A DNA stretch of 33,221 nucleotides, from positions 1-33,221 of the forward strand of contig JWZX01002530.1 of assembly GCA_001275005.1 (NCBI GenBank), read 5' to 3'. The notes beneath the pieces are model-generated. The model ran no database searches. It saw only the letters and a program-made list of their open reading frames with translations, and had not been told where the DNA came from. Origin of the DNA: Chrysochromulina tobinii (taxonomy: Eukaryota). The position numbers and the translations under genes are program-made. Positions 1,214 to 33,221 of this stretch are shown here, piece after piece. The first letter of the stretch is position 1; every line of letters begins with the position of its first letter.

Positions 1214-1290
1214 CACCAGTCCTGCTGTCAACCCGCATCTCCCCACGACTTTCCCGTGATTCCCCCCCATCCCCCCTTTTGCGCGGATGC

Positions 1291-2856: not shown

Positions 2857-2892
<36 letters not shown>

Positions 2893-7946: not shown

Positions 7947-7988
<42 letters not shown>

Positions 7989-9881: not shown

Positions 9882-10142
9882 TTAGAAATGGGTCCCCCAC
9901 CCTATAGAAAGGAGATACTATGTAGCCACAGGTGTGAGCTCCTTGACCAGAACAAGGTGTGAACTCGACGGCGGGCGAGCGGACGACGTTCTGGCACACA
10001 AACATCATCTCTTCACATGAAATGGCCATGTCAATTCACGGATAAGTGCGCACACGAGGGCGGACTGCTGCGCCGAGGCCGTCCACACAGTCGTGTCTCT
10101 CGTTCGTGCCTCTTGTTCGTGCCTCCGGGTAGAATTCCTAGC

Positions 10143-12566: not shown

Positions 12567-14138
12567 CTACGGGCGGGCTGCTGGACCAGCTGGGCGGCAC
12601 CGCTGCGCCTCCTGCCACGTGCGGATCTGCCTACGCACAGTGTGATTGGGGAAGAGCATCTTGACCTCGAGCTCGGCGCCCGTCATCGGGCTGGTCGAGT
12701 GGCCGACGAGCCAGTCCTCGATCGCACGCCGCTCGTACATGTGGCCGTCCGCAGCCGAGACCGGGTCGATCATGAGGTTGTGCGTGATGGGGCAGATGAA
12801 GTCGTCGGGCGGCTCCTCCGCCGCTGCGGCCTCCGTTGCAGCGTGCGCCTTTGCTGCTGACGCATTAGCCTCTTGCTCCGCCTGATTGCGAGCGTGCTCT
12901 TCTGCCTCCGCCTGGGCGGCCTTGGCCTCCGCCTCCGCTCGTGCCGCGGCCCTCGCCTTTGCCTCAGCCTCAGCGGCGGTCATTGCCGTTGCCTCGGCCT
13001 GTACCTGCGCCTTCGTCTTGGCCCCCGCTACTGCCGCAGCTTTCACCACAGCGCTGGCGTGCTCCACGCTGGCGTTGGCTGACGCCTCTGTAGGAGCGCC
13101 AGCCTTCTTCTTGGCCTTGATCTTGCCCTTCTTGCTCCGCGCTTTCTCAGCCTCGCTCTCTTCTTCAGCCAGCAGCGCTGCCATTGCCGCATCCGCGCGC
13201 GCTGCCGCGGCCGCCAGCGCAGCAGCGTCCTCGACCTGAGCCGAAGCGTTCTCGGATGCACCTTTGCGCGCTTTGGTCACACGCGGCCGCTGCGCCTCGG
13301 CCTCGAGCTTTGGTCTGCCTTGCGTGACGTTGTGCATTCGAGCGAGGTAGCTCTGTGCGTCAGCATCTCCTTGCGCGGCCGCGAGGCCAAGCAGCCGCCG
13401 CGCCTCAACCGCATCCTTGGGTCCGCCACGCCCTTCGTAGAGCATGCGAGCGAGACCGCACTGCGCGTCAGCAACCCCCTGCGCGGCCGCGAGGCCATAC
13501 AGCCGCCGCGCCTCCACCTCATCCTTGGGTCCGCCACGCCCTTCGTAGAGCCCGTGAGCGAGGCAGCTCTGCGCACCAGCGTGCCCCTGCGCGGCCGCGA
13601 GGCCATACAGCCGCCGCGCCTCCACCTTGTCCTTAGGTCCGCCGAGTCCTAAGACGAGCATGCTAGCGAGGCGGCACTGCGCGTCAGCGAGCCCCTGCGC
13701 GGTTGCGAGGCCATACAGCCGCCGCGCCTCCGCATCATCCTTGGGTCCGCCACGCCCTTTGTAGAACATGTTAGCGAGGCGGCACTGCGCATCAGCGTGC
13801 CCCTGCGCGGCCGCGAGGCCAAGCAGCCGCCGCGCCTCCACTTCGTCCTTGGGTCCACCGAGCCCAGAGCCGAGCATGTCAGCGAGGCGGTACTGCGCAT
13901 CAGCGTGCCCCTGAGCGGCTGCGAGGCAAAACAGCCGCCGCGCCTCCACCTCGTCGTTGGGTCCGCCGTATCCTTTGTTGATTTGTTTGTAGAGCATGAA
14001 CGCGAGGGAGAACTGCGCATCAGCATGCCCTTGCGCGTCCGCGAGGCCAAACAGCCGCCTCGCCTCTGCCTCGTCCATCGGTCCGTCGTGCCTAGACACG
14101 AACAATCGCACTTTTTGAGATACAGAGATTGCATGCAT
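12567..14138 (-). CDS. SEL1-repeat protein with Ala-rich coiled coil and C-terminal U-box (E3 ubiquitin ligase)
   Basis: About 7 SEL1 repeats (36 aa/108 bp: EARRLxGLAAAQGHADAQxxLAxML..GxGGPKD); U-box PDDFICPITHNLMIDPVSAADGHMYERRAIEDWL...SPMTG...LFPNHTVR. Start at 14138 or 14078. Confidence 0.92.
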   Translation of the reverse strand: MHAISVSQKVRLFVSRHDGPMDEAEARRLFGLADAQGHADAQFSLAFMLYKQINKGYGGPNDEVEARRLFCLAAAQGHADAQYRLADMLGSGLGGPKDEVEARRLLGLAAAQGHADAQCRLANMFYKGRGGPKDDAEARRLYGLATAQGLADAQCRLASMLVLGLGGPKDKVEARRLYGLAAAQGHAGAQSCLAHGLYEGRGGPKDEVEARRLYGLAAAQGVADAQCGLARMLYEGRGGPKDAVEARRLLGLAAAQGDADAQSYLARMHNVTQGRPKLEAEAQRPRVTKARKGASENASAQVEDAAALAAAAARADAAMAALLAEEESEAEKARSKKGKIKAKKKAGAPTEASANASVEHASAVVKAAAVAGAKTKAQVQAEATAMTAAEAEAKARAAARAEAEAKAAQAEAEEHARNQAEQEANASAAKAHAATEAAAAEEPPDDFICPITHNLMIDPVSAADGHMYERRAIEDWLVGHSTSPMTGAELEVKMLFPNHTVRRQIRTWQEAQRCRPAGPAARP

Positions 14139-14265
14139 TCTCGTCGCAAACTTGTAAAGGCGCGACCATGACACATTGTATCTTCATATTCGGATTCCGA
14201 ATCGGTTCCCGAAAAAAGAAGGAACCCGAGTCCCGAACCAGCGTAACAGCCTGTTCACACGATTC

Positions 14266-16701
14266 ATGCGCGACGACCCTCGCGGCGCTCGCTTCGTCGG
14301 CCTGGGCCTGACCGAGCTTCCGCGATCTACCTTCGAGGCACCGATCACATCTCTACAATTGGCTGGCAATGCGTTTCAGGTCCTGCCGCCGCAGCTTGCG
14401 GCGTGTCCAAGCCTTACCGATCTCGGCTTGGACTCCAACGAGCTGCGTGGTCTGCACCCGGAGACGCTGTCTTGCCTGTCTTCGCTGCGAGCGCTGTCGC
14501 TCACCGGCAATCAGCTCACCGAGGTGCCTCCGGAGATTGGCAAGCTCGGGGCACTCGCGCTCGGCGGAAACGAGATTTCCGAGCTGCCACGTGAAATAGG
14601 CAACTGCTCCTCGCTGCGCACGCTGACGTTGTCGGAGAACGCGCTCACGGCGCTGCCTAGTGAGCTGGGCCGGCTCCAGATGTTGCGCACGCTGCGCCTG
14701 GACGGCAACCCGTCGCTCACGTGCCTGCCCGACTCGCTCTGTGACCTTCGAGCCCTCGAGGCCCTCTCCGTATGTGCATGTGGGCTGCGCGATCTGCCGG
14801 GCAGATTGGGAGAGATGAGCGCGCTCTCGACGCTCTTGGCGAATGATGACCGCCTCGAGGGCCTGCCGACCAGCATAGGTGGTCTGCAGCGCCTCCGCAC
14901 TCTCGGCCTCTCTGGCAACCGGCTCCGCACGCTGCCAACCGCTCTCGGCGCGTGCGCCGCGCTACGCACGCTCTCCCTCAGTGCGAATCGTTTGAAGGAG
15001 CTGCCGGCGGAACTGCGCGGGCTCTACAGGCTTGAAGAGCTGCTTCTTGACGACAACCCTTTGGACGCCTTGCCAGCCGAGCTGCCGCCGGCGCTGCGCG
15101 TGCTAGGCGTGAGCGTGTGCACGGGCGTCCGTGTGCTGCCAGTGTCTCTCGGAAGCCTTTCGCAGCTGACCCAACTGGCGATAGGAGCGGCTCGGTTGGA
15201 GGCTCTGCCTGCGTCCACGACCCTGCTCGTTCGTCTCCAGACCCTCATCCTGAGCGGCAACCTCCTCCGTACGCTCCCGCCGAACCTCGGCGCCCTCGCG
15301 TCCCTCGCGACCCTCGATGTGTCCGATAACCGGCTCGAGAAGCTGCCAGAGTCGATTTGTTCCTTGGGCGTGCTCACGACGCTTCGGGCGGCGGAGAATG
15401 GCCTCGAGGCACTCCCGGAGCTCGTGGGCGATCTCAGGTCACTGCAGGTGCTCAGCATCGCCGCCAACCGACTCCGACGCCTCCCCGACTCGATCGGCAA
15501 CCTCACGTCGCTGCAGTTCCTCGATGTGTCTTCGAACCGGCTCGAGGAGCTGCCGGCGACGATGGGGAGCCGTTGGAGCGAGCTTCGTCAACTCTTCCTC
15601 GATGACAATGAGCTCTCTTCGCTCCCTGCCTCGCTCGGCGAGCTGCGTGCGTGTGAGGAGCTCGGCCTCGCCGTCAATTCCCTAACGGAACTGCCAACGT
15701 GGCTGCTCGAGGGCTCGCTGACGAAACTCCGAACGCTGCGGCTGCACTCCAACCTGCTGCCGCATCCGCCAGCGCCACAGGATTGGAGTGCGCTGTCCAT
15801 CGCCGCCAATCGCCTCACGCTCTTTGACAACCCGCGGTGTGCGACACTTCCGAGACACTTCCGAGACACTTCCGAGACACTTCCGTGCGGCCATCAGGCC
15901 GTGGGAGGAATTGGCATGCCGCTGCCACCTCGTGCGGAGAAGAGCAGCCACTTCCGAGACACTTCCGAGACACTTCCGAGACACTTCCGTGCGGAGAAGA
16001 GCAGCCCACGGGTATGCCCAACGCAACGCCCAAGTATCGCCCTTCTCCTGCCCGGCCTTCTACGCAACTATGCTCACGGCGCGCACTGGAGACGCTTCGT
16101 CAGCGCGCTCTCCGCCGCGTACGAGGTGCAGGTCTACATGTGCCTCTGGGCCATCCGAGGCTCGCCAGCCAACCACTTTGCCCAGAGCGCCGACAAGGAG
16201 CACGCGGCGAGGGTGGACCTTGCGGCTCTCGCGGCGGCCTACCCGTCCGCAGCCGCCGTGGAGCTCGTGGAGCTCGAGCATTGGATCGACCGGGACCGCG
16301 AGGGCCACGACGGGCGGTTCGCCAACCAATGGGCGATGGTCGCGCGCTGCTGGGCGCTGATGGAGCGCTCGGTACAGCGCTCGATCGAGCCCGCTGCGTG
16401 CCCAACGTATGTCATCCGAGCTCGGCCAGATTTGCGAGTGGCATGCCTACCGCTGCCACTCGAGCAGCCGTCACCGTACCTCGCCATCCAGGAGCGCCTG
16501 TGGGGCAGCGACTGCTTCTTCTACGGCGACTACGAGAGCATGCGCACCATCTGCACGGAGCTTGCCCCGCACTACGACGAGTACACCCACGCGCTCGGCC
16601 ATGCGTCGAGCGAACCGATGCTCCAACACCACATCGACCGACACGGTCTCGCGGAGCGCATGCTACGGTTCGCCAGGTGCGTCAGCATCGACCGGACGTA
16701 A
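14266..16701 (+). CDS. Leucine-rich repeat protein with C-terminal glycosyltransferase-like domain; probable in-frame intron 15837-16004
   Basis: Roughly 20 LxxLxLxxNxLxxLP repeats (~14300-15830). C-terminal domain IALLLPGLLRNY...QWAMVARCW...YVIRARPDL...SDCFFYG...SEPML. A 168-nt GT...AG segment contains the intervening repeats. Confidence 0.85.
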   Translation: MRDDPRGARFVGLGLTELPRSTFEAPITSLQLAGNAFQVLPPQLAACPSLTDLGLDSNELRGLHPETLSCLSSLRALSLTGNQLTEVPPEIGKLGALALGGNEISELPREIGNCSSLRTLTLSENALTALPSELGRLQMLRTLRLDGNPSLTCLPDSLCDLRALEALSVCACGLRDLPGRLGEMSALSTLLANDDRLEGLPTSIGGLQRLRTLGLSGNRLRTLPTALGACAALRTLSLSANRLKELPAELRGLYRLEELLLDDNPLDALPAELPPALRVLGVSVCTGVRVLPVSLGSLSQLTQLAIGAARLEALPASTTLLVRLQTLILSGNLLRTLPPNLGALASLATLDVSDNRLEKLPESICSLGVLTTLRAAENGLEALPELVGDLRSLQVLSIAANRLRRLPDSIGNLTSLQFLDVSSNRLEELPATMGSRWSELRQLFLDDNELSSLPASLGELRACEELGLAVNSLTELPTWLLEGSLTKLRTLRLHSNLLPHPPAPQDWSALSIAANRLTLFDNPRCATLPRHFRDTSETLPCGHQAVGGIGMPLPPRAEKSSHFRDTSETLPRHFRAEKSSPRVCPTQRPSIALLLPGLLRNYAHGAHWRRFVSALSAAYEVQVYMCLWAIRGSPANHFAQSADKEHAARVDLAALAAAYPSAAAVELVELEHWIDRDREGHDGRFANQWAMVARCWALMERSVQRSIEPAACPTYVIRARPDLRVACLPLPLEQPSPYLAIQERLWGSDCFFYGDYESMRTICTELAPHYDEYTHALGHASSEPMLQHHIDRHGLAERMLRFARCVSIDRT
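15842..15990 (+). repeat. 11-bp tandem repeat (GACACTTCCGA)n in two blocks, probably intronic
   Basis: About 4 units at 15842-15885 and about 4 at 15949-15989. The second block is flanked by the direct repeat CGTGCGGAGAAGAGCAGCC (15931 and 15988). Confidence 0.9.
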
Positions 16702-16961
16702 ACACGTAATGCGCGACCTTCCAGATGTGAATTTAGGATGGCTGTGATAAGCATAAGAGGGTCCAGGGGTCCCCGAGCTAGTGGTAACCGCATCCGTATG
16801 TACGCCGGTCCGGTGACCTGGGCAATTATAACCATTGGCTGTGAATTCAGGTTCGTCAATACTAACAACTTGCTCGTTTCCGCAAACCGCGGAATCCCGA
16901 AAACTATCCCGAAGAATAAAATTCGCGTGAAGAGTGTGGTGACCTCCTCGCGGGCTTCTTC

Positions 16962-18122
16962 ATGCTAGGCTGCGGCGCTACAAGAGCGCCGAGCAGCAAG
17001 GTGCATATCGGCTCCGAGGACGACGACGCCACCGACGGGTGCGGCAGCGCCATCGGCTGCGGCAAACATCATGGCACGAGTGCTGCCAGCGCCGACGAGC
17101 GGCTCTTCAGCGTGGGTGCTCTGGAGGCTAGAAGCGAGAGCATGTGCGCTCAAATCGCCGCGTCGAACGGCATAATGTTGGAGTGCCGGCCGATGCTGTG
17201 GCCGGCACTCGTGGGCCTCGAGCCTTGGGCCGACGACAACCTCATCATCTCTGACGACGACGACGCATGTGAGGCAGAGTACGCCTTGCTGGCCTCCCAG
17301 GTGGACACTGTTGATCCCTCGCTGGTCCGAACGATTGACGCCGATATCCCGCGGACGGACATGAGCGGCGAGCGGCGGGTCTCCCTGCGTGCGCTGCTGC
17401 TCGCCCATTGCGTGCTCGAGCCGGCCTGGGGCTACTTCCAAGGTATGAATGAGGTGGGGTGCGTTCTACTTGAGGCGTGCGAGGGCGGCGGTGGCACGGG
17501 CGGCCTTGGCCGTAAGTTTTGGCTGTTCCGTGGCGTGCTGGCGCACTCGTCCGATAACTGGGCTCGCTCTGACCTGGGCGGCGTGTGGCGTCAGGCGCGC
17601 GCCGTGCAGCACATCCTCGATCTCGTCGACAAGCCCCTGGCTGCCAAGCTGCGCGCGGTCGAGGGCGCGAGTGGGGGCCCCGTCCACGAGCAGCCGCTCA
17701 CCTTCCTCTTTGGGCCGATCTTTCTGCGGCTCAAGCGCGAGATGGCTGACCTTGAGCAGTGCATGCGCCTGTGGGAGGTGTGCTGGGCGTCTGGTCGTTA
17801 CTTCCACGTCCTCGTGATCGCTGCGTTCGTGTGCATGCAACGCAAGGCCATCCTGCGCCTACTCTCGCACCGAGGGATCGCCGAGCTGCACCGCCTCTTT
17901 GGGTTACTGCACGGCTCGCAGCGTGCCGCACCACTGCTCGAGGCGGCGCGCAAGCTGCAGCAGCGCTTGGGCGTGACGCAGGCGCTCGAGCAGATCATGA
18001 CGGCAGAGATTGTGTCAAGGCCCGATCATCGGCATGCGGAGCCTCGCGGCAGCGGCGACATAATCCCGACCCCCTCAGCCACCAGCAGTAAATTCTCTGG
18101 CCGTGGACCACTTTCCGCGTGA
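16962..18122 (+). CDS. TBC-domain Rab GTPase-activating protein (GYP7/TBC1D15-like)
   Basis: Arginine finger IDADIPRTD, glutamine finger GYFQGMNE, and LRLKRE...MRLWEVCW. Confidence 0.88.
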   Translation: MLGCGATRAPSSKVHIGSEDDDATDGCGSAIGCGKHHGTSAASADERLFSVGALEARSESMCAQIAASNGIMLECRPMLWPALVGLEPWADDNLIISDDDDACEAEYALLASQVDTVDPSLVRTIDADIPRTDMSGERRVSLRALLLAHCVLEPAWGYFQGMNEVGCVLLEACEGGGGTGGLGRKFWLFRGVLAHSSDNWARSDLGGVWRQARAVQHILDLVDKPLAAKLRAVEGASGGPVHEQPLTFLFGPIFLRLKREMADLEQCMRLWEVCWASGRYFHVLVIAAFVCMQRKAILRLLSHRGIAELHRLFGLLHGSQRAAPLLEAARKLQQRLGVTQALEQIMTAEIVSRPDHRHAEPRGSGDIIPTPSATSSKFSGRGPLSA

Positions 18123-18697
18123 CAGGGAGCTATGTGATGCGTCAGGCATCATTTCCGAGACGGCACCGCGGGATCAAATCTCAATGCAAATCTCGAGTCT
18201 CGTTTGTTTCCCCCTTCGCCTATTCGAGGCGCTCGCTAGCGCCTAGCCCGGCCTCAGCTGTAGGAAAACGCATATGGCATAACCGAATCCCAGTGGCAAT
18301 GCGCAACGGCAACCTTGGTGAACATGGATAGAACATGGAAGAAAGCCCCCGCGAAGGAAGCCCTGTGCGCTGCGTGGCGTGGGCCCGGACGGCCGCCCGC
18401 GGCCGCCCCCCCCCCGGCCTGGACGTGGATCACGCCAGAATTCAATCGATTAGACACTCAAAAAAATTTTCCATCGTCGGTCCAAAGTCAACCCTTTCTA
18501 CTATACGTACCGAACACTCTACTGTAATGTACCTGCAGCGACCGAGCGATCCGCCCCGGGGCCGCGCCGCTCGCGCACCTTTTTGTGCTGTGAGCCTGTG
18601 ACCTTTTCGCTAACTGATCTCTCTCTACTCTCATCGTCCGCATCTCCGCCTGCTCGGTCAGCCGAAGCCCGCGGGCGTCGCCCTTACCCTGGCTCGA

Positions 18698-20236
18698 TCA
18701 CCTCAGCCGATCAGGGCGTGCGCCCGTTGCTAAGTCGGGCCGCTGCGCCAGCCGCGCGCGCTCATCGAGCCTGCGGATCTGGTCGTCTAGGGCACCGGCG
18801 AGCTGCGTGTGCGACTTGCTATGACCCGAGAGGGCCTGTCGCACGCGGTCGGCGGAGGCACTCTTGGTGGCGATGTCGGCCTCGACGAGGTGCAGCTCGC
18901 GCTGCATGGCGCCGATGTCCTGCTGAAGCCCGAGACGGCGCCTGAACGCTGTCTCAAGTCCACGCATCACATCGTCATAGAAGCCCAAGTCGGCGCGTTC
19001 CGGATTCGTGAGAGCGCCGCCGCCGTGTTGAGCGCCGCCGCCGCCGCCAGCACTCACCCCCTGGCGAAAGGAGGAGGGCTCGAAGGCAAGGCCGACCGCG
19101 CCGGCGGACAGTGCATCCGCGCCCAACCCTCCGCGTGACGCAGGTCGCTCGAGCGACGCACTGAGCGAGGCAGCAGCGCCGGCGCCGCCACCGGCGAGGC
19201 CACGCTCACGCTCGCGGTAGAGGCGGCCCGCGTCACGGAATTGGAAGCCGCCGCCGACCACGAGACGCTGCTGGCGCTCCGCCGCCGTCTCTGGCGCTGG
19301 CTCGTGTGGCACAAGCTTTCGAAGGAAGTAGCGCGCGAAATCGGCGCGGTTGAGCGCTCCCGAGCCGTCAGCATCGATGGCGTGGACAACGTCCAAAAAG
19401 GCGGCCGGGTCGGCGAAGGGGCCCATCGAGAGCATCTCCTGCACCTGCGGCTTCTCCTTCATGCCAGTGAGCACGTCCACCTTCGATAGCTGCCCGTTGC
19501 CGCTGACGTCAAGGAGATCAAATGCGAGATTGACGAGAATCTTGAGCGCCTCCGTGTCCACGTCGCCGCGCACCGAGCGACGGATGGCCTCGTCGACCTC
19601 GGCCTCGGTCTTGCCCGCGACAGGAACGCCGAGCGACTGGGCGATGCGCTCCTTGTGCTTCAGCTGCGTCGACCTGAGGCTGTCGCTGCCGCCGCCGCGC
19701 ATCTCCCGCTGCTGCGCCCACCCGACGCTGGCGGCGCTGGCGCCAGCACCGCCGCTGACAACCCCGCTCGAGGCGGCCGCGAGCGGGCCAGCACGTTGCG
19801 GAGGCAACACAGTAGTATGAAGCGGTGGTGCCTCGCGCGCCTGGAAGCGCCGAACCGCGTCAAGGTTGTTGCGTGCGGCCGTGATCTCGAGCAAGGTGCG
19901 CGATGACGGCGTGTGCCGCTGCACCAGCTCCTTGATGCGCACGACGCGCTCGAAGCCCGCAGCGGCCTCTTCGAGACGATGCTGCTTGAGGTGCAGCACC
20001 GCGAGATTGTTCAAAGCGCACGCCAGCTGCGGATGTTCTGCGTCGTCCGAGTAAATTGCCTCGCGCTGCTTCAGAGCGGCCATCAGGTCACGCTCGGCCT
20101 CAGCGAGCTCTCCGAGGCGCATATGCTCGATGCCGTCGGTCTCCAGCTTGTTGACCGCGATTCTGCCCGGAGGCAGCGGCGCCGATGGCGGCGGCAGCTG
20201 GTTGGAGTACGCCGATCGGTTCGATCGACCGTCCAT
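18698..20236 (-). CDS. TPR + EF-hand pair + C-terminal coiled-coil protein
   Basis: Kinesin-light-chain-type TPR (HPQLACALNNLAVLHLKQHRLEEA); EF loops DVSGNGQLSKVD and DADGSGALNRAD; heptad-rich C-terminus. Confidence 0.8.
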   Translation of the reverse strand: MDGRSNRSAYSNQLPPPSAPLPPGRIAVNKLETDGIEHMRLGELAEAERDLMAALKQREAIYSDDAEHPQLACALNNLAVLHLKQHRLEEAAAGFERVVRIKELVQRHTPSSRTLLEITAARNNLDAVRRFQAREAPPLHTTVLPPQRAGPLAAASSGVVSGGAGASAASVGWAQQREMRGGGSDSLRSTQLKHKERIAQSLGVPVAGKTEAEVDEAIRRSVRGDVDTEALKILVNLAFDLLDVSGNGQLSKVDVLTGMKEKPQVQEMLSMGPFADPAAFLDVVHAIDADGSGALNRADFARYFLRKLVPHEPAPETAAERQQRLVVGGGFQFRDAGRLYRERERGLAGGGAGAAASLSASLERPASRGGLGADALSAGAVGLAFEPSSFRQGVSAGGGGGAQHGGGALTNPERADLGFYDDVMRGLETAFRRRLGLQQDIGAMQRELHLVEADIATKSASADRVRQALSGHSKSHTQLAGALDDQIRRLDERARLAQRPDLATGARPDRLR

Positions 20237-20252
20237 TTGTCTAACCGCCTCG

Positions 20253-20296
20253 AGTCAAGTCAAGTCAAGTCAAGTCAAGTCAAGTCAAGTCAAGTC
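20253..20296. repeat. (AGTCA)n pentanucleotide microsatellite just upstream of the TPR/EF-hand start codon
   Basis: About 9 perfect units, ending 16 nt before the minus-strand ATG at 20236. Confidence 0.95.
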
Positions 20297-20524: not shown

Positions 20525-21663
20525 GCTCGAATCCAATCGCGGAACATCTGAACACAATCGCAGCTTCGCGCACTCATTCGCACGGCAAGCCAACATGCTC
20601 TCCTGCGTCCTCGCCGCCTCCCCCGCTCTGATGCTCGGCCCGGTGGCCGCGCCAGCCCTGCGCCACGCATCACCCACGATGCAGCAGACCTTCCAACGCG
20701 AGCAGGTCGGCTACGGGACCGCGACCTACACCGGCGGCGTCGTGCCCACGCGCATGGCGCCCGTCAAGGCCGACTCCACCATCCTCGTGCAGGGTGGCTC
20801 GCTGCGCACGTGGTCATACCGCTCGCCGTCCGTGGAGCAGGTGCAGGTCGTCCTCAGCACCGAGGGCCGCCCGCTCGACGCCGACATCGAGCTCTGGCAC
20901 GGCCCCGACAACACGCCCTGCAAGATGCGCGTGTACGTCGAGAACGGCCAGCTCCGCCCCTTCTCGGCGGTGATCGAGACGCCGCGCGGCCCGAACACCG
21001 TGGCCATCCGCAACATCGGCCAGATCGAGTTCCCCATCGCCGCCAACGTCGTCGCTGACCAGGTCGACAGCCCGTCCGCCGACTGCATTGCCGCATCGAC
21101 GACCATCCAGGGTGGCGCCCTGCGCACGTATCCCTTCGACCCGACCGTCGACAGCGTCCAGGTGCTGCTCAAGACCGACGGCCGCCCGCTCAACGCGCGC
21201 ATCGAGCTCCTCCAGGGCCCGAACAACAACAAGCAGGTCATCGAGCTCTACACTGAGGACGGCCTCGACCGGCCATTCTTCGCCATCCTCGAGACCCCGG
21301 GCTCGGGCAACGTCGTCCGCATCGTCAACACCGCGCCGATCGAGTTCCCCATGACCGCCGGCGTTGTACCGCACTCGATCAATACGGACATGTCCGCGGC
21401 CGACGTCGTCATCGGCGGCGACATTGGCCGCTAATGTGCAGGCCGCACGGCCGCGCCGCGCACAAGGATTGAGTCCCACACGCGCGCGCGACGATACCTT
21501 CAGATGTCTGGGCTGGCGGCCACGATCGGGATGGGGCGCGCACGCCGCGAAAGAGCATGAAGAGAGTTGCGAGCCGTGCTTCGCGGAGGAGGAGGAGGCC
21601 CGGGAGGAGAGGCCGGGCGTTCATCGTAGGAGCTGAGAGAGATGAGTCGGTCGTGCCCGTCCG
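20525..21663 (+). repeat. Left arm of a ~1.1-kb inverted duplication (gene plus UTRs)
   Basis: Aligns by eye to the reverse complement of 24980-26076, from the 5' flank GCTCGAAT(C/A)CAATCG...CACAATCGCAGCTTCGC to the 3' flank GTCGTGCCCGTCCG. Confidence 0.92.
20595..21434 (+). CDS. Uncharacterised algal protein, 279 aa, two internal repeats (QGGxLRT...GRPLxAxIELxxGPxN...ETP), probable plastid presequence; copy 1
   Basis: Strong GC3 codon bias; hydrophobic N-terminus then Ala/Pro/Arg/Ser segment ending ASPTM; two clearly homologous halves of about 100 aa. Confidence 0.9.
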   Translation: MLSCVLAASPALMLGPVAAPALRHASPTMQQTFQREQVGYGTATYTGGVVPTRMAPVKADSTILVQGGSLRTWSYRSPSVEQVQVVLSTEGRPLDADIELWHGPDNTPCKMRVYVENGQLRPFSAVIETPRGPNTVAIRNIGQIEFPIAANVVADQVDSPSADCIAASTTIQGGALRTYPFDPTVDSVQVLLKTDGRPLNARIELLQGPNNNKQVIELYTEDGLDRPFFAILETPGSGNVVRIVNTAPIEFPMTAGVVPHSINTDMSAADVVIGGDIGR

Positions 21664-22720: not shown

Positions 22721-24382
22721 TTAGCGGGCCCAGCTCGGCGCGTCGAGATTCGCGAGCCACGCGGCCTTGGCGCTCTCAGCACCCGCGACCGGCGCGCTGT
22801 TCGGCATGAAGGCTGGCGCATAATTGGACGGGAGGCTTCGGGTAGGCACGACACGGCCGGCCGGGGCCGGCGCGTTGCTCGACCCCCATGCTGGCGCGTC
22901 GAGCTTCGCAAGCCACGCGGCTTTGGCGGCAGCCTCGTTCGTCGAGGCGCAAGCGGGCACGGCGTACGCGGGAGCGAGCGCAACCGGCGCGGGCGCCGAG
23001 GCATGCATAGCACCGAAGAACGCGTCGCGCTCTGCAAGCCATGCGGCCTTGGCAAACGCCTCAGCCGTGGTGGCGGCAGCGAGGTCCAGTTTGGCGAGCC
23101 AGGCGGCCTTAGCAGCAGCCTCACGCGTGGCAGCGGTGTCAACGGGCGCGGCATTGTATGAGAACGTGGCATCGCTGACGGGCTCAGAGTAGAGTGCGGT
23201 GGGGGTTACACGACCCTGGCCCCAGGCAGGCGTGTCGAGCTTGGCAAGCCATGCGGCCTTGGCGGCAGCCTCGCCAGCAGCGCCAGTGGTGGCGGCAGCG
23301 CGGCCCCAGGCGGGCGTGTCGAGCTTGGCGAGCCAGTCGGCCTTGGCGGCAGCCTCGCTAGTTGCGGCGGCAGCGGCGTCGATCGTGGGGGTGGCAGCGC
23401 CTGACTCGGTGACGAACGCAACGGTCTTCGGGCCCCAGGTGGGCGCATCGAGCTTGGCAAGCCATGCGGCCTTGGCGGCAGCCTCGCCAGCAGCGCCAGT
23501 GGTGGCGGCAGCGCGGCCCCAGACAGGCGTGTCGAGCTTGGCGAGCCAGGCGGCCTTGGCGGCAGCCTCGCTAGTTGCGGCGGCGGTGGCGTCGATCGTG
23601 GGCGTGGCAGCGGCCGACTCAGTGATGAACGCAACGGTCTTCGGGCCCCAGGTGGGCGCATCGAGCTTGGCAAGCCATGCGGCCTTGGCGGCAGCCTCGT
23701 TCGTGGGGGTGTGGGCGGCAGCGCGGCCCCAGACAGGCGTGTCGAGCTTGGCGAGCCAGGCGGCCTTGGCGGCAGCCTCGCTCGATGCAGCCGGTCCAGC
23801 GTAGGCGGGGGCAGCCTCAACTAGAGCAGGCGCCGAGGCACCCCTGCCCCAGGCAGGCCCATCGAGCTTTGCGAGCCAGGCGGCCTTGGCGGTTGCCTCG
23901 TTCGTGGCGGCGGCAGCGCGGCCCCAGACAGGCGTGTCGAGCTTGGCGAGCCACGCGGCCTTGGCGGCGTCTTCGCTGGGAGCAGCAGCAATCGTAGCAG
24001 CCGCCGGGGCAGGGTTCATGAAGCCGGCCTTGGTGCCCCAGCTTGGCATATCGAGCTTTGAGAGCCAGGCAGCTTTGGCGCCCACGGTGTTCATGACTAT
24101 GTCGGGCGAAGACGCCTTGCCAACAATAGTGCCCGTTATGTAGGCGGACTGCAGAACATTGGGAAGGCGGCAGCAGAGAACGTGAGTCATGGATGGCAGT
24201 CGATGACCACTCTTTGAACCGTGCCGCGCGCGTGGTGTGCAGGGCGAGATCAAGGAAAGTGTCGGCCGTCAAATCCAGCACAGTGGTGCACGAGGCAGGG
24301 TGAGGTGGGGCTGCGGGAGGGCGAGCGGTCGCGCGCGTACCGAGAGCGCGACCGTCGAAGAGCAGACGAGGAGGTGAAGCAT
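22721..24382 (-). CDS. Ala-rich repeat protein with 13 AKAAWLAKLD(xPxWG) motifs and bipartite plastid-targeting-like presequence; exons 24382-24341 and 24148-22721 (489 aa)
   Basis: Phase-0 intron GTACGC...TTCTGCAG (24340-24149) joins MLHLLVCSSTVALS to SAYITGTIVGKASSPDIVM. Motif copies counted in the translation; a 213-bp (71 aa) two-motif higher-order repeat lies at about 23230-23780. Confidence 0.88.
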
Positions 24383-24979: not shown

Positions 24980-26076
24980 CGGACGGGCACGACGACTGAT
25001 CTCTCTCAGCTCCTTTGATGAACGCCCGGCCTCCTCCTCCTCCGCGGAGCACGGCTTTCACTTCTCTTTAGGCTCTTTCTCGTCGCGCGCGCCCCATCCC
25101 GATCGCGGCCGCCAGCCCAGACCTCTGAAGGAACTTGTCGCGTGTGCGGTGTGGGACACAATCCTTGTGCGCGGCCTGCACATTAGCGGCCAATGTCGCC
25201 GCCGATGACGACGTCGTCCGCGGACATGTCCGTGTTGATCGAGTGCGGGACAACGCCGGCGGTCATGGGGAACTCGATCGGCGCGGTGTTGACGATGCGG
25301 ACAACGTTGCCCGAGCCCGGGGTCTCGAGGATGGCGAAGAATGGCCGGTCGAGGCCGTCCTCTGTGTAGAGCTCGATGACCTGCTTGTTGTTGTTCGGGC
25401 CCTGGAGGAGCTCGATGCGCGCGTTGAGCGGGCGGCCGTCGGTCTTGAGCAGCACCTGCACGCTGTCGACGGTCGGGTCGAAGGGATACGTGCGCAGGGC
25501 GCCACCCTGGATGGTCGTCGAGGCGGCAATGCAGTCGGCGGACGGGCTGTCGACCTGGTCGGCGACGACGTTGGCGGCGATGGGGAACTCGATCTGACCG
25601 ATGTTGCGGATGGCCACGGTGTTCGGGCCGCGCGGCGTCTCGATCACCGCCGAGAAGGGGCGGAGCTGGCCGTTCTCGACGTACACGCGCATCTTGCAGG
25701 GCGTGTTGTCGGGGCCGTGCCAAAGCTCGATGTCGGCGTCGAGAGGGCGGCCCTCGGTGCTGAGGACGACCTGCACCTGCTCCACGGACGGCGAGCGGTA
25801 CGACCACGTGCGCAGCGAGCCACCCTGCACGAGGATGGTCGAGTCGGCCTTGACGGGCGCCTTGCGCGTGGGCACGACGCCGCCGGTGTAGGTCGCGGTG
25901 CCGTAGCCGACCTGCTCGCGCTGGAAGGTCTGCTGCATCACGGGCGATGCGTGGCGAAGGGCTGACGCGGCCACCGGGCCGAGCATAAGAGCGGGGGAGG
26001 CAGCGAGGACGCAGGAGAGCATGCTGCTGAGGCGAAGCTGCGATTGTGGTGCGATGTTCCACGATTGTATTCGAGC
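24980..26076 (-). repeat. Right arm of the ~1.1-kb inverted duplication
   Basis: Reverse-complement match to 20525-21663; CDS nearly identical, UTRs with more substitutions and indels. Confidence 0.92.
25183..26022 (-). CDS. Uncharacterised algal protein, 279 aa; copy 2 (inverted paralog of 20595-21434)
   Basis: Same length (840 nt); only 4 amino-acid differences seen (P/S and T/V in the presequence, M/K, A/D). Confidence 0.9.
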   Translation of the reverse strand: MLSCVLAASPALMLGPVAASALRHASPVMQQTFQREQVGYGTATYTGGVVPTRKAPVKADSTILVQGGSLRTWSYRSPSVEQVQVVLSTEGRPLDADIELWHGPDNTPCKMRVYVENGQLRPFSAVIETPRGPNTVAIRNIGQIEFPIAANVVADQVDSPSADCIAASTTIQGGALRTYPFDPTVDSVQVLLKTDGRPLNARIELLQGPNNNKQVIELYTEDGLDRPFFAILETPGSGNVVRIVNTAPIEFPMTAGVVPHSINTDMSADDVVIGGDIGR

Positions 26077-26706: not shown

Positions 26707-28512
26707 TCAATCTTTGCCCCGGAGGCGCTTCCACAACCCTCGTTTCTTCTTCGTCTCTGTCGCCACTATGATCGCCGCCTTTGGCGCCGCCTCCGGCAGC
26801 GCCATCAACCGATCACTCTTGGCGAGAACCTTCTCCGCTCGCTCAATGACCGACCTCTCGTCTACCGAGAGCCCAGTCGCTTGTGCAAACTCGCTCGACG
26901 TCCATTGAGCTGGGCTCCATTTGACAGGCTCTGGCTTCGGCACAGGCTCTGGCTTCTCGTCCACTGCCAATCCCGGCGCGGCATCAAACTCCTTCTTCGC
27001 CCATGGCGCTTTGAACGGCTCTGGCTTCGGCGCACGCGTTACCTTCTCGTCCACTGCCAATCCCGGCGCGGCATCAAACTCCTTCTTCGCCCATGGCGCT
27101 TTGTAAGTCGCCTTGACGATCGGCTTAGCCGCTGGTACGTCCACTGGCTTGGCAGGCTTCGCCTTTCCTGTCGTGGGTGCCGTCACGGGCGCCGGGGCTG
27201 CCGAGGATGCCTCCGTCTCGTTGCCACCGAGCAGCACAACCGCCGCGCCAAGGGCGACTACAGATGGGATTGGGTTGAAACCGCCGCCACGTTTTTTCTC
27301 AGCGGTGGCCTTCGCCTTGGGTGCAGCCTTGGCCGGAGGGGCCTTCGCGGCGAGCCTCTTCGCTTTGATCGCGGCGGCCTTCTCCGCCTCCCGCTCCGCC
27401 TGCGCCGCCGCGCGCGCCGTCCGCTCTGCCTGCAGCTCCGCCACCCGAACTTTGTTGCGCTCCCGTGCGGCTTGGGCTTCATCGATCTTATTGCGAGCCG
27501 CTGCCAAAGGCTGCGCCGCCTTGGTCGCCTTCGGCGCTGCCGCCGCCTTTGGCGCCGCCGCCGCCTTCGGTGCCGCCGCCGCCTTTGGCGCCGCCGCCGC
27601 CTTTGGCGCTGCCGCCGCCTTTGGCGCCGCCGCCGCCTTTGGCGCCGCCGCCGCCTTTGGCGCCGCCGCCGCCTTTGGCACCGCCGCCGCCTTTGGCGCC
27701 GCCGCCGCCTTTGGCGCTGCCGCCGCCTTTGGCGCTGCCGCCGCCTTCGGCGCCGCCGCCGCCTTCGGCGCTGCCGCCGCCTTCGGTGCCGCCGCCGCCT
27801 TCGGCGCCGCCGCCGCCTTTGGCACCGCCTTCGGCGCTGCCGCCGCCTTCAACGCTTTACGGCGCGCCTCGGCCTCAAGCTTCGCTTGCTTCGCTTGCTT
27901 CGCGGCCGCCTCGCCCAGGGCCCTCTTATTGGCAGCCGCCGCATTGGCCGCTCTGGCCGCCTCATTCTCCATCGCCAACTTAGCGGCCTTGGCTGCCTCA
28001 CGCTGTGCGTCGGCTGCCCGCTTGTTCGCCAGCGCCTCGGCCTTTTGGCGCGCCGCCGTCACCTTCACCAAATCTCGTTGCGCCGTCGCACGTACCTTAG
28101 CTTCACGTTGCGCCGCCAATTCCTTCGCCTTCGCTTCCACCTTGGCCAACGCCTCCGCCTTGGCGATGGCCTGGGCCTCAGCCTTGGCGGCCTTGGCCTT
28201 GGCCTGGGCCTCGGCCTTGGCGGCGATTGCCTCGGCCTTGGCTTCCGCTTCAATTGCCTGTAACCTCGCTGTAACGGCACGTTCTTTCTCTTCTGCGAGC
28301 GCCAAGCGCTCCTTTGCACTCAACTCCGGAGACGAGATGGCAAGCAAGGTCACGGCCGGCAACTGCGGTAGTGGTGTCGCCGCGATCGCTGCCTGCTGAA
28401 CCACAGGGAACGGAGCCGTCGAAAGGAGCCCCGCGATAACGATTGAGCACAGCGAAGCGGAAGCGCGTGCGCCAGCGTCATTCCCTCTGAATGGTCTGAG
28501 CGGTGCCCTCAT
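26707..28512 (-). CDS. Ala/Lys-rich protein: hydrophobic targeting segment, coiled coil, (KAAAAP)n, single TM helix, repeated C-terminal motifs
   Basis: 601-aa ORF. LCSIVIAGLLSTAP...AAIAA (AxA-type) near the N-terminus; TM-like IPSVVALGAAVVLLGG; KAPWAKKEFDAAPGLAVDEK twice plus a variant KWSPAQWTSSEFAQATGLSVDE. Confidence 0.8.
   Translation of the reverse strand: MRAPLRPFRGNDAGARASASLCSIVIAGLLSTAPFPVVQQAAIAATPLPQLPAVTLLAISSPELSAKERLALAEEKERAVTARLQAIEAEAKAEAIAAKAEAQAKAKAAKAEAQAIAKAEALAKVEAKAKELAAQREAKVRATAQRDLVKVTAARQKAEALANKRAADAQREAAKAAKLAMENEAARAANAAAANKRALGEAAAKQAKQAKLEAEARRKALKAAAAPKAVPKAAAAPKAAAAPKAAAAPKAAAAPKAAAAPKAAAAPKAAAAPKAAAVPKAAAAPKAAAAPKAAAAPKAAAAPKAAAAPKAAAAPKAAAAPKAAAAPKATKAAQPLAAARNKIDEAQAARERNKVRVAELQAERTARAAAQAEREAEKAAAIKAKRLAAKAPPAKAAPKAKATAEKKRGGGFNPIPSVVALGAAVVLLGGNETEASSAAPAPVTAPTTGKAKPAKPVDVPAAKPIVKATYKAPWAKKEFDAAPGLAVDEKVTRAPKPEPFKAPWAKKEFDAAPGLAVDEKPEPVPKPEPVKWSPAQWTSSEFAQATGLSVDERSVIERAEKVLAKSDRLMALPEAAPKAAIIVATETKKKRGLWKRLRGKD
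27529..27850 (-). repeat. 18-bp coding minisatellite encoding about 18 KAAAAP units
   Basis: Period-18 repeat (plus strand CGCCGCCGCCTTTGGCGC-type) with synonymous variation between units. Confidence 0.95.
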
Positions 28513-28686
28513 GTGTGCGGCCTTTCGAGATAATAATTAATATCCCGAGTGGCCGCCGTTACCGGTAAAAATACACCGGGAGCCGTTACCGGTCCCGGTA
28601 AAAAGTCACCGGGGGGAGCCGGGACACACATGGGACACACACGGGACACGCGGGCGCACAAGGGCACCGGTACGTTTGACAACGTG

Positions 28687-29695: not shown

Positions 29696-29944
29696 GGCGG
29701 AAGAAGACGGATGCGCGAGCGACGGCCGTGTGTTGCGCGAAAACATTCTTGAGAATTCCATTTTGGGACGTTTCTTCGTCAAATGCTTTTGGGTGATGCC
29801 CTTTCGTATGATGTCTCAGAGTTTCTGGAATTTCATCGCGTTCACGACGCGCCGCTTCCGGCGCCCTTGCCTTGACATGTCTCGGCGCGAGAACTCCGGA
29901 GGTCGACATCAGTCTCTTCGGCATCGATCCGCTGTCGGCGAACG

Positions 29945-32900
29945 ATGCTGCTGCTCTTGCCCTCTTTGGCGAGTATTACGTTCAACATCGGTGCCACGCA
30001 TCGACCATCGGCGTTGCCGCGTGTGGGTCCGCCTGTGCGACTCAGCGTCACGGCCGCGACACCGCTCGGTGAGGGCGAATGGGAGGTCATCAAGGAGGGT
30101 GGAGCTTTCTATGGCCGCGCGTCGCAGTCAAAGCTGCGTGTCAACGTGGCTGGCAAGGAGATGACATTCGGCACAGGCTTGATCGCACGCCAGGCCAATG
30201 CAGCCGTCACCGTCGAGCAGGGCCAAACGCACGTCTTCTCGGCCGCGTGCTTCGAGCGCAAGACGGACTTTGAGGCGATCGACTTCACGCCGCTCAAGGT
30301 GGACTACTTTGAGCGGCAGTCTGCGGCGGGACGGACGCTCGGTGGGTATATCAAGCGTGATGGCAAGCCGTCCAACCACGAGACGCTCACTTCACGCCTG
30401 ATCGACCGACCAATCCGTCCGCTCATCGCCAAGGGCTGGTCGCTCGAGACGCAGCTGACAGCGTACGTCCTCGCGTATGATGGCACGCACATGCCCGACG
30501 TGCTCGCGATCCTGGCGTCCTCGGCGGCGCTCGCTCTCTCCGAAGTCCCCTTCCCCAAACCAGTCGCTGCCGTACGCGTCGGCCTCATCGAAGAGCGCCG
30601 TCCTGAGCGCCCGGCCCCAGCGGCGGCGACGGACGACGCGGTGAGCGACGGCGCGGCGAGCGACGACGCCGGCGCCGGCGTCGTCGCCGGTGCCGCCGAG
30701 GAGGATGACTTTCTGGACGAGCTGATCCTCGACGAGCAGGTGACCGAGATCTCCGAGATCTCCGAGATCTCCGTCATCAGCTCTGATTGCCTCCCTCATC
30801 AGCTCTGATTGCCTCCCTCATCAGCTCTGATTGCCTCCCTCATCAACGCAGGTGACCTCCGAGACCTTCGAGGAGGCGACCGACGACAGCAGCGGCGGGG
30901 GCGGCAGCAGCAGCGCTCAAGACGGCGCCCAAGCGTCGTACCGGTTGGTAATCAACCCGACGCGCGAGGAGATGGCGATCTCGAAGCTCAATCTCGTGAT
31001 CGCGGGCACCTCCGACGCGGTGCTGATGGTCGAGGGCTTCTGCGACTTTTTGCCCGAGGAGACGGTCCTCGAGGCGATGGAGCTTGGCCTCAAAAGCGTA
31101 CGCACCCTCGCGCCCTGCCCAGCCGCGCGTCGCATGCAAGTGCTCACTACGGCGCCACGTCTCTTCCCCACAGGTACGCACTCTCGCATTGGCCATCGGC
31201 GAGTGGGCGGCCGCGTGCGGCTCGCCCAAGTTCGAAGCCGGCGTGCGCGCCGAGCCAGAGGGGCTCGATGCCATGGTAGAGGCGATCATCGGCGACGAGA
31301 TCGAGGGCACGCTATGCGGCCCTACCAAGGTACGTTGATGGCCACTGATGACCTGGGTTGCATGCAAGCGCTCACCACAGCGCGCTCTGCGCCCCTAATT
31401 AGGACGACCGCGAGAATTGGGAAGGGCTCTGTAATCGGGCGGTCGAGGCTCTGTGCTCCGATGCGGCGGTGGCGTCGCGCGGCGGCCTCGTCTTCGAGAA
31501 GATCGATGTCAAGTCGTCGTTCAAGCGGCTCGCGTACGCGAGGCGCCCGGGATGACGAATGATTGCGAGTGATTGCGAATGATTGCGAATAATTGCGACT
31601 GATTGCGTACGCGAGGCGCCCGGATAACGACTGATTGCGAATGATGGCCTCGGATTGCCGCTGATGATGGCCTCGGATTGCCGCTGATGATGGCCTCGGA
31701 TTGCGGCTGATGATGGCCTCGGATTGCGGCTGATGATGGCATCGGATGGGCTTCCTCTTCAGGTGTGCTGGCATCTGATGACCTTTGGATGACCTTTGAT
31801 GAGCTCTGATTGCCTCCCTCATCAGGTGTGAGACGCTACGTCGCATGGGCGTGCGCGGCGTGCGCCAGGACGGACGACGGACGACCGAGGTGCGACCACT
31901 GATGACGACCACTGATTACCACTGATTACCTCTGATTACCACTGATTGCTACGACCGAGGTCGATCGAGGTACGACCGAGATCGACGTCCGAGATCGACG
32001 TCCAGAGCGCGCAGCATGCAAGTGCTCACCACGGCGCCGGTCCTTTCCACAGGTACGCCCGATCGACATTCGGCTGGCGCCGCTGCCGCCACAAGTTCAT
32101 GGCTCCGTCCTGTTCACACGTGGCGAGACGCAGTCGCTCGCAACGACGGTCCTCGGCGATGACTCGATGGTGTCGCGGTACGCTGATTGCCACTGATTAG
32201 CTACTGATGGCGTCTGATGACCTATGATGGCCTCTGACGACGCCCGATGACGCCCGATGACGCCCAATGACCTTCCTCATCAGGTACGAGAACCTCGATG
32301 GCGAGCAGGGGAAGCGCTTCTACCTGCAGTACATCTTCCCGCCCTTTTCGGTGGGCGAGGTGGGGCGCAACGGCGCGCCGGGACGACGCGAGGTCGGCCA
32401 CGGCAACCTTGCCGAGCAGGCGAGCTGATGACCTCTGATTGGCCATGATGACCACTGATTGCCTATGAGTGGCCCTGATGGGAAGTTATGGCGAGCTAAC
32501 GCGTCGTCGTGGGCATGCTACCTTTTCCGAGCAGGCCCTCGCGCCCGCGATGACCAATGATGACCCCTGATGAGCACTGATTGCCCCCCTCATCAGGCCC
32601 TCGCGCCCGCGATGCCAACCTCGAGTGAGTTCCCTGATGACCTCTGATGAGCACTGATTGCCCCCCTCATCAGGCCCTCGCGCCCGCGATGCCAACCTCG
32701 AGTGAGTTCCCGTACGTGGTGCGCGTCGAGAGCCTGATCACCGAGTCGTGTGGCTCGTCCTCCATGGCGTCCGTCTGTGGCGGCGCGCTCTCCATGATGG
32801 CGGCAGGCGTCCCGCTCAAGCGCGTCGTCGCCGGAGTTGCGATGGGGCTGCTCCTCGACGAGAGTGGGGGCGGGGGAGAGCCGATCATCCTCACAGGCGA

Positions 32901-33221
32901 GCTGATGACCTCTGATTGCCCATGATGACCACTGATTGCACCCCGATGGGCGCCAAGGGAGAGCCGATCATCCTCACAGGTTCGTTGATTGCCACTGATG
33001 ACCTGCCTTGCATGCAAGCGCTCACCACAGCGCTATCGGCTCGACCGACCCGATCATCCCCACAGATATCCTCGGCTCTGAAGATGCACTGGGCACGATG
33101 GATTTCAAGGTGCGCTGCCGACGCCTCACCACACCCCCACTCCCCCCGACGCGTCACCACACCCCACTCCCCCCGACGCGTCACCCGTAGTCGTCACCCG
33201 TAGTCTTCACCCGTAGTCTTC
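29945..33221 (+). CDS. pnp: Polyribonucleotide nucleotidyltransferase (PNPase), probably plastid; partial. Exons 29945-30739, 30852-31097, 31174-31329, 31403-31533, 31826-31889, 32053-32177, 32284-32419, 32674-32896, 33066-33109
   Basis: The spliced frame gives [55 protein letters not shown]...[27 protein letters not shown]...[24 protein letters not shown] and [17 protein letters not shown]. All intron phases are consistent. Confidence 0.95.
30740..33221 (+). other. Set of repeat-rich spliceosomal introns in PNPase: 30740-30851, 31098-31173, 31330-31402, 31534-31825, 31890-32052, 32178-32283, 32420-32673 (GC-AG), 32897-33065 (GC-AG), and one starting at 33110
   Basis: Boundaries inferred from continuity of conserved PNPase sequence. 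Shared modules CTGATTGCC(T/C)CCCTCATCAG, CTGATGACC and GCATGCAAG(T/C)GCTCAC recur between introns. Confidence 0.85.
31641..31750 (+). repeat. 23-bp intronic minisatellite (TGATGATGGCCTCGGATTGC(C/G)GC)n
   Basis: About 4-5 tandem units in PNPase intron 4, preceded by 10-bp TGATTGCGA(A/G/C) repeats at about 31560-31606. Confidence 0.9.

What the first reader, a model, noticed from the sequence alone, without database searches (positions are those of the whole stretch)
22721..24382. Candidate haptophyte pyrenoid/Rubisco linker: plastid-targeted disordered protein with 13 Trp-containing sticker motifs
Seen: a short first exon missed by the ORF track restores a signal peptide ending SSA-Y plus a transit-like segment. 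The mature part is only 13 copies of a helix-prone motif (E)AAAKAAWLAKLD, usually followed by xPxWG, separated by Ala/Pro/Thr spacers, with the last copy at the extreme C-terminus. Established: known Rubisco condensers (Chlamydomonas EPYC1, Phaeodactylum PYCO1) are non-homologous, disordered sticker-spacer repeat proteins with Trp-centred motifs. WLAKLD has the same W-x-x-x-hydrophobic-acidic spacing as the EPYC1 motif WRQELE but lacks the basic residue after W. Inference: a multivalent scaffold for form ID Rubisco or another stromal/thylakoid partner. I know of no characterised haptophyte linker.
Basis: partly seen in the sequence, partly recalled or inferred. Interest (0 to 1): 0.85.

Follow-up and report, generated by a model that had tools for sequence, protein, structure and literature searches.

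The report
Haptophyte pyrenoid glue and address tag
Between two pyrenoid-shell genes of a haptophyte alga lies a gene for a floppy protein built from 13 copies of a short tryptophan motif; the same motif is attached to shell proteins and aldolases in other algal sequences, and the protein likely glues the CO2-fixing enzyme Rubisco into the pyrenoid, though binding is untested.

Summary
Observation confirmed. A two-exon gene (GT-AG, phase 0) encodes about 489 aa with 13 AKxxWLxxxD motifs, 11 with a second Trp; the motifs are under coding constraint. The host is Chrysochromulina tobinii-like.

(1) The gene lies between two PyShell (pyrenoid shell) genes.
(2) The motif defines a family (284 clusters at 50% identity). 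All three clusters with an organism name are haptophytes.
(3) The motif is appended to PyShell and to class I and II aldolases, families with pyrenoid members in diatoms, but also to SecA, cupin, WW, ERO1 and LHC domains.
(4) A second motif, GxVVPT, is shared with PyShell N-termini.
(5) Many relatives carry a Cys-x7-Cys loop just before the motif.

It fails the EPYC1 and PYCO1 motif tests, so it belongs to neither family. Best reading (0.6): a multivalent pyrenoid scaffold whose Trp helix binds form ID Rubisco and doubles as a pyrenoid address tag. Rubisco binding, localisation and splicing are untested; complex prediction and RNA data were unavailable. No description was found in the papers searched.

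The parts
24341..24382 (-). Exon 1: start codon and 14 hydrophobic residues, most of the predicted signal peptide
   Evidence: signal function inferred
24149..24340 (-). Predicted 192-nt GT-AG intron, phase 0
   Evidence: not confirmed by RNA
24092..24148 (-). End of the signal peptide and transit-like segment ending in Met, just before the first motif
   Evidence: 48 of 60 relatives with a near-N-terminal first motif have a Met within 10 residues before it
22721..24148 (-). Exon 2: 475 aa sticker-spacer region and stop codon
   Evidence: no Pfam family; AlphaFold2 pLDDT below 50 throughout
22742..24079 (-). Array of 13 AKxxWLxxxD(xPxWG) motifs; cores begin at 24079, 23965, 23890, 23770, 23689, 23560, 23476, 23347, 23263, 23113, 23053, 22927, 22771
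   Evidence: helices over 11 of 13 motifs in a low-confidence model
22841..22858 (-). Single GxVVPT element between motifs 12 and 13
20595..21434 (+). PyShell gene A (pyrenoid shell protein), stop 1286 nt from the linker's stop; GxVVPT at 20733-20750
   Evidence: Pfam PF25192 E 7.2e-90; 97.5% to C. tobinii KOO32186.1
25183..26022 (-). PyShell gene B, stop 800 nt upstream of the linker's ATG; GxVVPT at 25884-25867
   Evidence: Pfam PF25192 E 5.6e-90; PDB 8wqp E 1.3e-99; 97.8% to KOO32186.1

Best explanation
The gene encodes a protein with 13 Trp motifs on Ala/Pro/Thr spacers that is likely imported into the plastid and likely cross-links form ID Rubisco into the pyrenoid matrix, each motif predicted to form a short helix that would bind Rubisco weakly. 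SHOWN: the gene structure, the motif array and its coding constraint, the flanking PyShell genes, the same motif on PyShell and aldolase proteins, and a GxVVPT element shared with PyShell. INFERRED, step by step: (1) a bipartite leader takes the protein into the stroma; (2) in each helix Trp0 and Leu+4 lie on one face flanked by Lys-3 and Lys+3, and dock in a hydrophobic, acidic patch on Rubisco, with the xPxWG tail adding a second Trp anchor; (3) 13 stickers 20-52 residues apart bridge several Rubisco holoenzymes and drive condensation; (4) two to eight copies appended to enzymes, shell proteins and membrane proteins act as a pyrenoid address, as the Chlamydomonas Rubisco-binding motif does; (5) GxVVPT may tie the matrix to the shell. 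The candidate site is the RbcL cleft that binds PYCO1's second helix; this is a lead only.
For: Flanked by two PyShell genes within 1.3 kb and 0.8 kb. Of 122 motif-bearing cluster representatives, 70 have a motif-free stretch of 110 aa or more, and 23 of those 70 have a real Pfam domain. Of the 23, 18 are PyShell (6), aldolase class I (9) or class II (3). PyShell, FBAC1 and FBAC5 localise to the diatom pyrenoid (passages of bioRxiv 2023.10.25.564039; PMC3245544). On the aldolases the motifs sit directly after the presequence, like an added tag. GxVVPT occurs exactly 3 times in the window's six frames, in the two PyShells and this gene; in 74 of 120 PyShell N-termini; in 20 of 116 non-shell carriers (shuffle mean 0.04); and in 11 of 107 further carriers (shuffle mean 0.015). 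Spacing: 552 of 566 gaps fall in the 20-120 range used to find linkers. Leu at +4 (70%) and Asp/Glu at +5 (90%) over 688 copies echo the Chlamydomonas motif. Six of seven PYCO1-pocket residues of RbcL are kept in the haptophyte alignment, with F104 read as Y.
Against: The 18 pyrenoid-family fusions are redundant. The nine class I aldolases are close relatives of one another, and the six PyShell fusions fall in two groups. Counted by family, only 3 of 8 partner families are known from pyrenoids; the others are SecA, cupin, WW, ERO1 and LHC. None of the 107 further representatives had a PyShell or aldolase domain. Most PyShells lack the Trp motif (0 of the 120 nearest, 164-524 aa), including both in the window. 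Orthology of the tagged aldolases to FBAC1/FBAC5 was not tested. The basic residue that forms EPYC1's salt bridge is absent. The RbcL pocket may be conserved for other reasons. The hosts of the PyShell fusions are unnamed and have atypical long leaders. One genome holds many carriers, so this gene need not be the main linker. A pyrenoid in this species was not confirmed in the papers read.
Confidence: 0.6

Rival explanations
1. A pyrenoid scaffold, but the Trp motif binds the PyShell lattice or itself (Trp-Trp self-association), not Rubisco. The protein would line or organise the shell.
For: Genomic position between two PyShell genes; PyShell fusions; shared GxVVPT; PYCO1 stickers also self-associate; unexplained density on the diatom shell in situ.
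Against: A shell protein that carries up to eight copies of a shell-binding motif is less economical than one that carries a matrix anchor. The diatom aldolases were placed in the pyrenoid with no shell-specific location reported in the passages read.
Confidence: 0.17
2. A general plastid docking tag unrelated to the pyrenoid, for example for the thylakoid surface, a photosystem subunit, a lipid body or a chaperone; the repeat-only proteins are stress or scaffold proteins. The PyShell neighbours are coincidence or co-regulation.
For: The motif occurs on SecA, ERO1, cupin, WW and LHC proteins. 14 of 229 carriers have a membrane-span-like stretch, some of them spurious. 47 of the 70 carriers with long extra regions have no real Pfam domain.
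Against: The motif helix has almost no hydrophobic moment (0.02-0.06, below at least 96% of shuffles, 4 of 13 copies tested), unlike a membrane-binding amphipathic helix. The Chlamydomonas motif also occurs on membrane tethers, an epimerase and 52 of 735 non-pyrenoid chloroplast proteins, so mixed partners are expected of a pyrenoid tag too. This reading leaves GxVVPT and the double PyShell flank unexplained.
Confidence: 0.2
3. A mobile or slipped DNA minisatellite that keeps a frame open by chance; no functional protein.
For: A 213-nt tandem unit in 2.7 copies at 92% identity lies inside the gene, and copy number differs among close relatives (8-11 against 13).
Against: 26 synonymous against 5 non-synonymous differences in the core; a protein-level motif conserved across genera in 284 clusters; intact leaders on relatives.
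Confidence: 0.03

Closest known systems
Chlamydomonas EPYC1 and the shared Rubisco-binding motif (Meyer et al. 2020, PMC7673724)
   Same: Disordered Ala-rich repeat protein with short Trp helices; hydrophobic +4 and acidic +5; one motif shared by a linker, membrane proteins and an enzyme; a copy at or near the C-terminus.
   Different: No W[R/K] dipeptide, no D/N before Trp; adds a second Trp (xPxWG); 13 copies rather than 5; form ID rather than IB Rubisco; binding not demonstrated.
Phaeodactylum PYCO1 (Oh et al. 2023, PMC10288592)
   Same: Red-lineage plastid repeat protein with Trp stickers; PYCO1's RbcL-binding helix is also an Ala-led Trp helix, and its pocket is largely kept in haptophyte RbcL.
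   Different: No KWSP sticker and no Tyr self-sticker repeat. PYCO1 is narrowly distributed, whereas this motif spans at least Chrysochromulina-like, Prymnesium and Phaeocystis sequences.
Chlorella CsLinker and FLIPPer criteria (Barrett et al. 2024, PMC11570498); chlorarachniophyte PPAP28 (PMC10927497)
   Same: Disorder, repeated helices, spacing within 20-120 residues.
   Different: No sequence relation tested. Those have co-immunoprecipitation or structural support; this has none. The passages searched did not mention haptophytes.
PyShell / Shell proteins (Shimakawa et al.; Nam et al.; Pfam PF25192; PDB 8wqp)
   Same: Genomic neighbours; share the GxVVPT element in their flexible N-terminus; some carry the Trp motif as a fusion.
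   Different: The repeat protein has no PyShell domain; most PyShells lack the Trp motif.

Membership tests
EPYC1-type Rubisco-binding motif | [D/N]W[R/K]xx[L/I/V/A] core with obligatory W[R/K] | tested here: not met
   0 W[RK] dipeptides in the protein; full pattern in 0 of 122 relatives (definition)
EPYC1-type Rubisco-binding motif | Aliphatic residue at +4 and acid or C-terminus at +5 | tested here: met
   12 of 13 copies have Leu+4 and 13 of 13 Asp+5; Leu 70%, Asp/Glu 90% over 688 copies
EPYC1-type Rubisco-binding motif | One motif shared by several unrelated pyrenoid proteins | tested here: inconclusive
   Shared by PyShell and two aldolase classes, but also by five families not known from pyrenoids; localisation unknown
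PYCO1 | KWSP[R/Q] small-subunit sticker and GTGYNP self-sticker | tested here: not met
   No KWSP; no GTGYNP visible in the translation
PYCO1 | Large-subunit-binding Trp helix and its pocket | tested here: inconclusive
   Pocket residues Y89, D92, F102, L361, F366, F480 kept, F104 read as Y; motif similarity is loose; no docking
Pyrenoid linker (functional class) | Largely disordered | tested here: met
   pLDDT below 50 for 475 of 475 residues with a shallow 12-row alignment; Ala/Pro/Thr-rich, no Pfam domain; no dedicated disorder predictor run
Pyrenoid linker (functional class) | Repeated short helices spaced 20-120 residues | tested here: met
   Spacings 20-52; helices over 11 of 13 motifs in a low-confidence model
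Pyrenoid linker (functional class) | Plastid stromal targeting | tested here: inconclusive
   Hydrophobic leader plus Met-ending transit-like segment by inspection; same layout in relatives and on aldolases; no predictor, no RNA
Pyrenoid linker (functional class) | Binds and phase-separates Rubisco; localises to the matrix | not testable with these tools
Pyrenoid linker (functional class) | Absent from pyrenoid-less relatives | not testable with these tools
   Only 3 of 20 carrier clusters looked up had an organism name; no Pavlovales proteome could be searched
PyShell | Double beta-sheet PF25192 domain | tested here: not met
   No Pfam hit for the repeat protein; both neighbours meet it
CP12 (considered for the Cys loop of relatives; features recalled) | Match to the CP12 family | tested here: not met
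   No CP12 hit in the Pfam scans; the window protein has no Cys-x7-Cys pair

The most novel reading that the evidence does not exclude
Haptophytes assemble their pyrenoid with a lineage-wide two-word address code. A double-Trp helix binds form ID Rubisco and is pasted onto linkers, aldolases, shell proteins and thylakoid tethers; GxVVPT binds the PyShell lattice; and a Cys-x7-Cys loop in many family members switches the Rubisco sticker by redox. The window would hold a small pyrenoid gene cluster (shell, linker, shell).
Probability: 0.3. Interest if true: 0.92.

Novelty: new variant of a known kind. Interest (0 to 1): 0.78.

Why it matters
Haptophytes are major aquatic carbon fixers with form ID Rubisco, yet the 2023-2026 reviews and papers searched name linkers only for Chlamydomonas, Chlorella, Phaeodactylum, a chlorarachniophyte and a hornwort. 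A concrete 18-residue motif makes the open question of how haptophyte Rubisco is condensed directly testable with peptides. It also yields a ready list of candidate pyrenoid proteins, and it may address how the shell is attached to the matrix, which the PyShell paper lists as unresolved. Known linkers are narrowly distributed; one conserved across haptophyte orders would be unusual, and could serve for engineering red-type Rubisco condensates.

Tried and rejected

RNA evidence and the whole genome were not available, so splicing, expression and the genome-wide number of carriers stay open.

AlphaFold2 of a natural motif-PyShell fusion (P0099) gave pTM 0.41 with helical motifs and gave no verdict on motif-shell contact.

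ESM Atlas: no usable hit for the protein or for a tagged aldolase N-terminus. PDB: no match to the motif profile at E up to 10.

Prokaryote genomes: 223 and 75 pattern matches, none confirmed. Viral contigs: none. A motif HMM found 0 of 237 PyShell-cluster and Rubisco proteins at 12 bits.

Pfam UBA_RNF31, DUF1955 and similar short matches lie on the repeats themselves and were dropped before counting partner domains.

C. tobinii KOO35896.1 (811 aa) is not a linker-PyShell fusion. The Ala/Lys-rich neighbour at 26707-28536 has no blastp match to 229 carriers with low-complexity masking.

Literature: literal motif strings gave 3 irrelevant papers; topic searches gave no haptophyte linker. Mackinder et al. 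2016 (PNAS) was not held. From recall it screened Emiliania huxleyi for EPYC1-like repeat proteins, so a family member may be listed in its supplement. Supplements of bioRxiv preprints were closed and none of the PMC supplements were read. PMC3017763 and PMC4226036 were read in passages and did not help.

Full report
OBSERVATION. The gene is on the minus strand. A 14-codon hydrophobic exon (24382-24341) is followed by a 192-nt GT-AG intron in phase 0 with a pyrimidine-rich acceptor, then by exon 2 (24148-22721, 475 aa). Exon 2 holds 13 AKxxWL motifs 20-52 residues apart; 11 have a second Trp nine residues on, and the last lies at the C-terminus. A strict pattern gives 12 matches against a shuffle mean of 0.0005. 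Differences among copies are 26 synonymous to 5 non-synonymous. AlphaFold2 gives pLDDT 31 with helices over 11 of 13 motifs and no other structure apart from short helical extensions (shallow alignment, low confidence). The mature part has pI 8.4, near-zero net charge and no membrane span. Splicing and targeting are inferred from sequence only.

HOST AND NEIGHBOURHOOD. Of 17 window ORFs scanned, two match Pfam DiatomPyrShell, and they are the two on either side of the repeat gene. They lie 1286 nt and 800 nt away and form an inverted pair with 90.9% DNA identity over 1173 nt. They are 97.5-97.8% identical to Chrysochromulina tobinii KOO32186.1 and group with it in a tree (50 rows, using every third of the 120 hits). 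Window GC of mostly 60-70% fits the 63.4% reported for that genome (passage). The passages read do not state that this species has a pyrenoid; I recall that it does, unverified. Haptophyte pyrenoids are documented, and Pavlova lutheri lacks one (PMC5853415, passages).

THE MOTIF IS A FAMILY-WIDE TAG. Two searches returned 122 cluster representatives of 261-832 aa, all with the motif: 688 copies, consensus (S/T)E(E/D/A)(A/E)AKxAWLA(K/R)(L/Q)D-xPxWG. A profile search found 284 clusters at 50% identity among 1.84 billion proteins; all 107 new ones retrieved carry the motif. Of 20 carrier clusters looked up, 3 had organism names: Prymnesium parvum once and Phaeocystis antarctica twice. No relative was confirmed in prokaryote genomes or viral contigs. 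Of the 122, 52 are repeat-only and 70 have a long extra region. All 70 were scanned: PyShell 6, aldolase I 9, aldolase II 3, ERO1 2, SecA 1, cupin 1, WW 1, and 47 without a real domain. The 107 further proteins added one LHC fusion and no PyShell or aldolase. In diatoms PyShell and the aldolases FBAC1 (class II) and FBAC5 (class I) are pyrenoid proteins (passages). Against this, the 18 fusions collapse to a handful of lineages, only 3 of 8 partner families are known from pyrenoids, orthology to FBAC1/C5 is untested, and 0 of the 120 nearest ordinary PyShells carry the motif. Several carriers have a leader, one hydrophobic span and motifs behind it, the layout of the Chlamydomonas membrane tethers RBMP1/2; this is a resemblance only.

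TWO FURTHER ELEMENTS. GxVVPT occurs three times in the window's six frames: once in each PyShell N-terminus and once in the repeat protein. It is in 74 of 120 PyShell N-termini, 20 of 116 non-shell carriers (five of them close relatives of this gene; shuffle mean 0.04) and 11 of 107 further carriers (shuffle mean 0.015). There was no control set of unrelated haptophyte plastid proteins. The PyShell N-terminus was unresolved in the diatom structure (passages). Separately, 70 of 122 relatives have a Cys-x7-Cys unit, and 140 of 163 such units sit exactly eight residues before a motif. The window protein lacks it. A redox switch is a guess.

MECHANISM. I take the protein for a multivalent scaffold of the pyrenoid matrix (0.6). 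On a helical wheel Trp0 and Leu+4 fall on one face with the two lysines beside them and alanines opposite. The hydrophobic moment is close to zero in the four copies tested, which fits a protein-binding face better than a membrane-binding one. Rubisco is the likeliest partner because a tag shared by a repeat protein, shell proteins, enzymes and membrane proteins is what the Rubisco-binding motif does in Chlamydomonas (PMC7673724, passages). The RbcL cleft that takes PYCO1's Trp helix (PMC10288592, passages) is kept at six of seven positions in an alignment of 36 haptophyte-type RbcL sequences, 35 from loci found with a recalled motif plus one named Diacronema record. That conservation may be general. 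Rivals are a shell- or self-binding motif (0.17), a general plastid docking tag (0.2) and a non-functional repeat (0.03). No binding was predicted or shown.

COMPARISON. It works like EPYC1, CsLinker and PYCO1 by architecture (criteria from PMC11570498, passages; 552 of 566 spacings in range), but it is a member of none. It has no W[R/K] and no KWSP, no Pfam family and no PDB match to the motif profile.

NOVELTY. Literal motif strings and five topic searches found no description. I saw these as search listings, and read passages only of PMC13655443, PMC10473226, PMC13544437, PMC10927497 and bioRxiv 2023.10.26.564148. The library lacks most subscription journals and Mackinder et al. 2016, whose supplement I recall lists E. 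huxleyi candidates; no supplements were read. The scan's own notes held nothing on this sequence; one note on an unrelated diatom gene did not bear on it.

VERDICT. A real, constrained gene and a strong candidate for the missing haptophyte pyrenoid scaffold and address motif; a new variant of a known kind; interest 0.78. The central binding step remains to be shown.

Noticed in passing
window 26707-28536 (-): About 600-aa ORF next to PyShell B with no Pfam family: a leader that looks like a thylakoid signal, an Ala/Lys-rich coil with about 17 six-residue repeats, one moderately hydrophobic stretch, then three Trp-containing repeats of a different pattern. A possible membrane tether; no blastp match to the motif carriers.
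   Followed up: partly
window 20595-21434 and 25183-26022: The two PyShell genes form a recent inverted duplication around the repeat gene, 90.9% DNA identity over 1173 nt including flanks.
   Followed up: partly
proteins P0027, P0030, P0036, P0046, P0570: Motif-PyShell fusions have long leaders with a second hydrophobic stretch and recurring spacers ending in LG(V/I)GG; P0570 has a similar recurring spacer. These recall polyprotein linkers (resemblance from memory). The host lineage is unnamed and may not be a haptophyte.
   Followed up: no
proteins P0041 and P0074 clusters: Members of two different motif-carrier clusters are listed on contigs of identical length (317060 and 5926 nt), suggesting that carrier genes also cluster in another genome.
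   Followed up: no
proteins P0104, P0110: Carriers with extended N-termini that resemble, from memory, presequences of dinoflagellates with haptophyte-derived plastids; the motif may have moved with the plastid.
   Followed up: no
proteins P0115, P0121-P0123, P0618: A shared unnamed membrane domain carries the motif; in P0618 it is also joined to a chlorophyll a/b-binding domain.
   Followed up: partly
window 1186-20254 and 29876-30808: Ordinary neighbours: ANTH/PDZ/PATROL-like, glutathione synthase, kelch, TTL, Sel1/U-box, LRR, TBC, TPR/EF-hand and RNase PH genes.
   Followed up: no
window 30769-33221: Many short tandem repeats with related TGAT-rich units of 10-77 nt.
   Followed up: no
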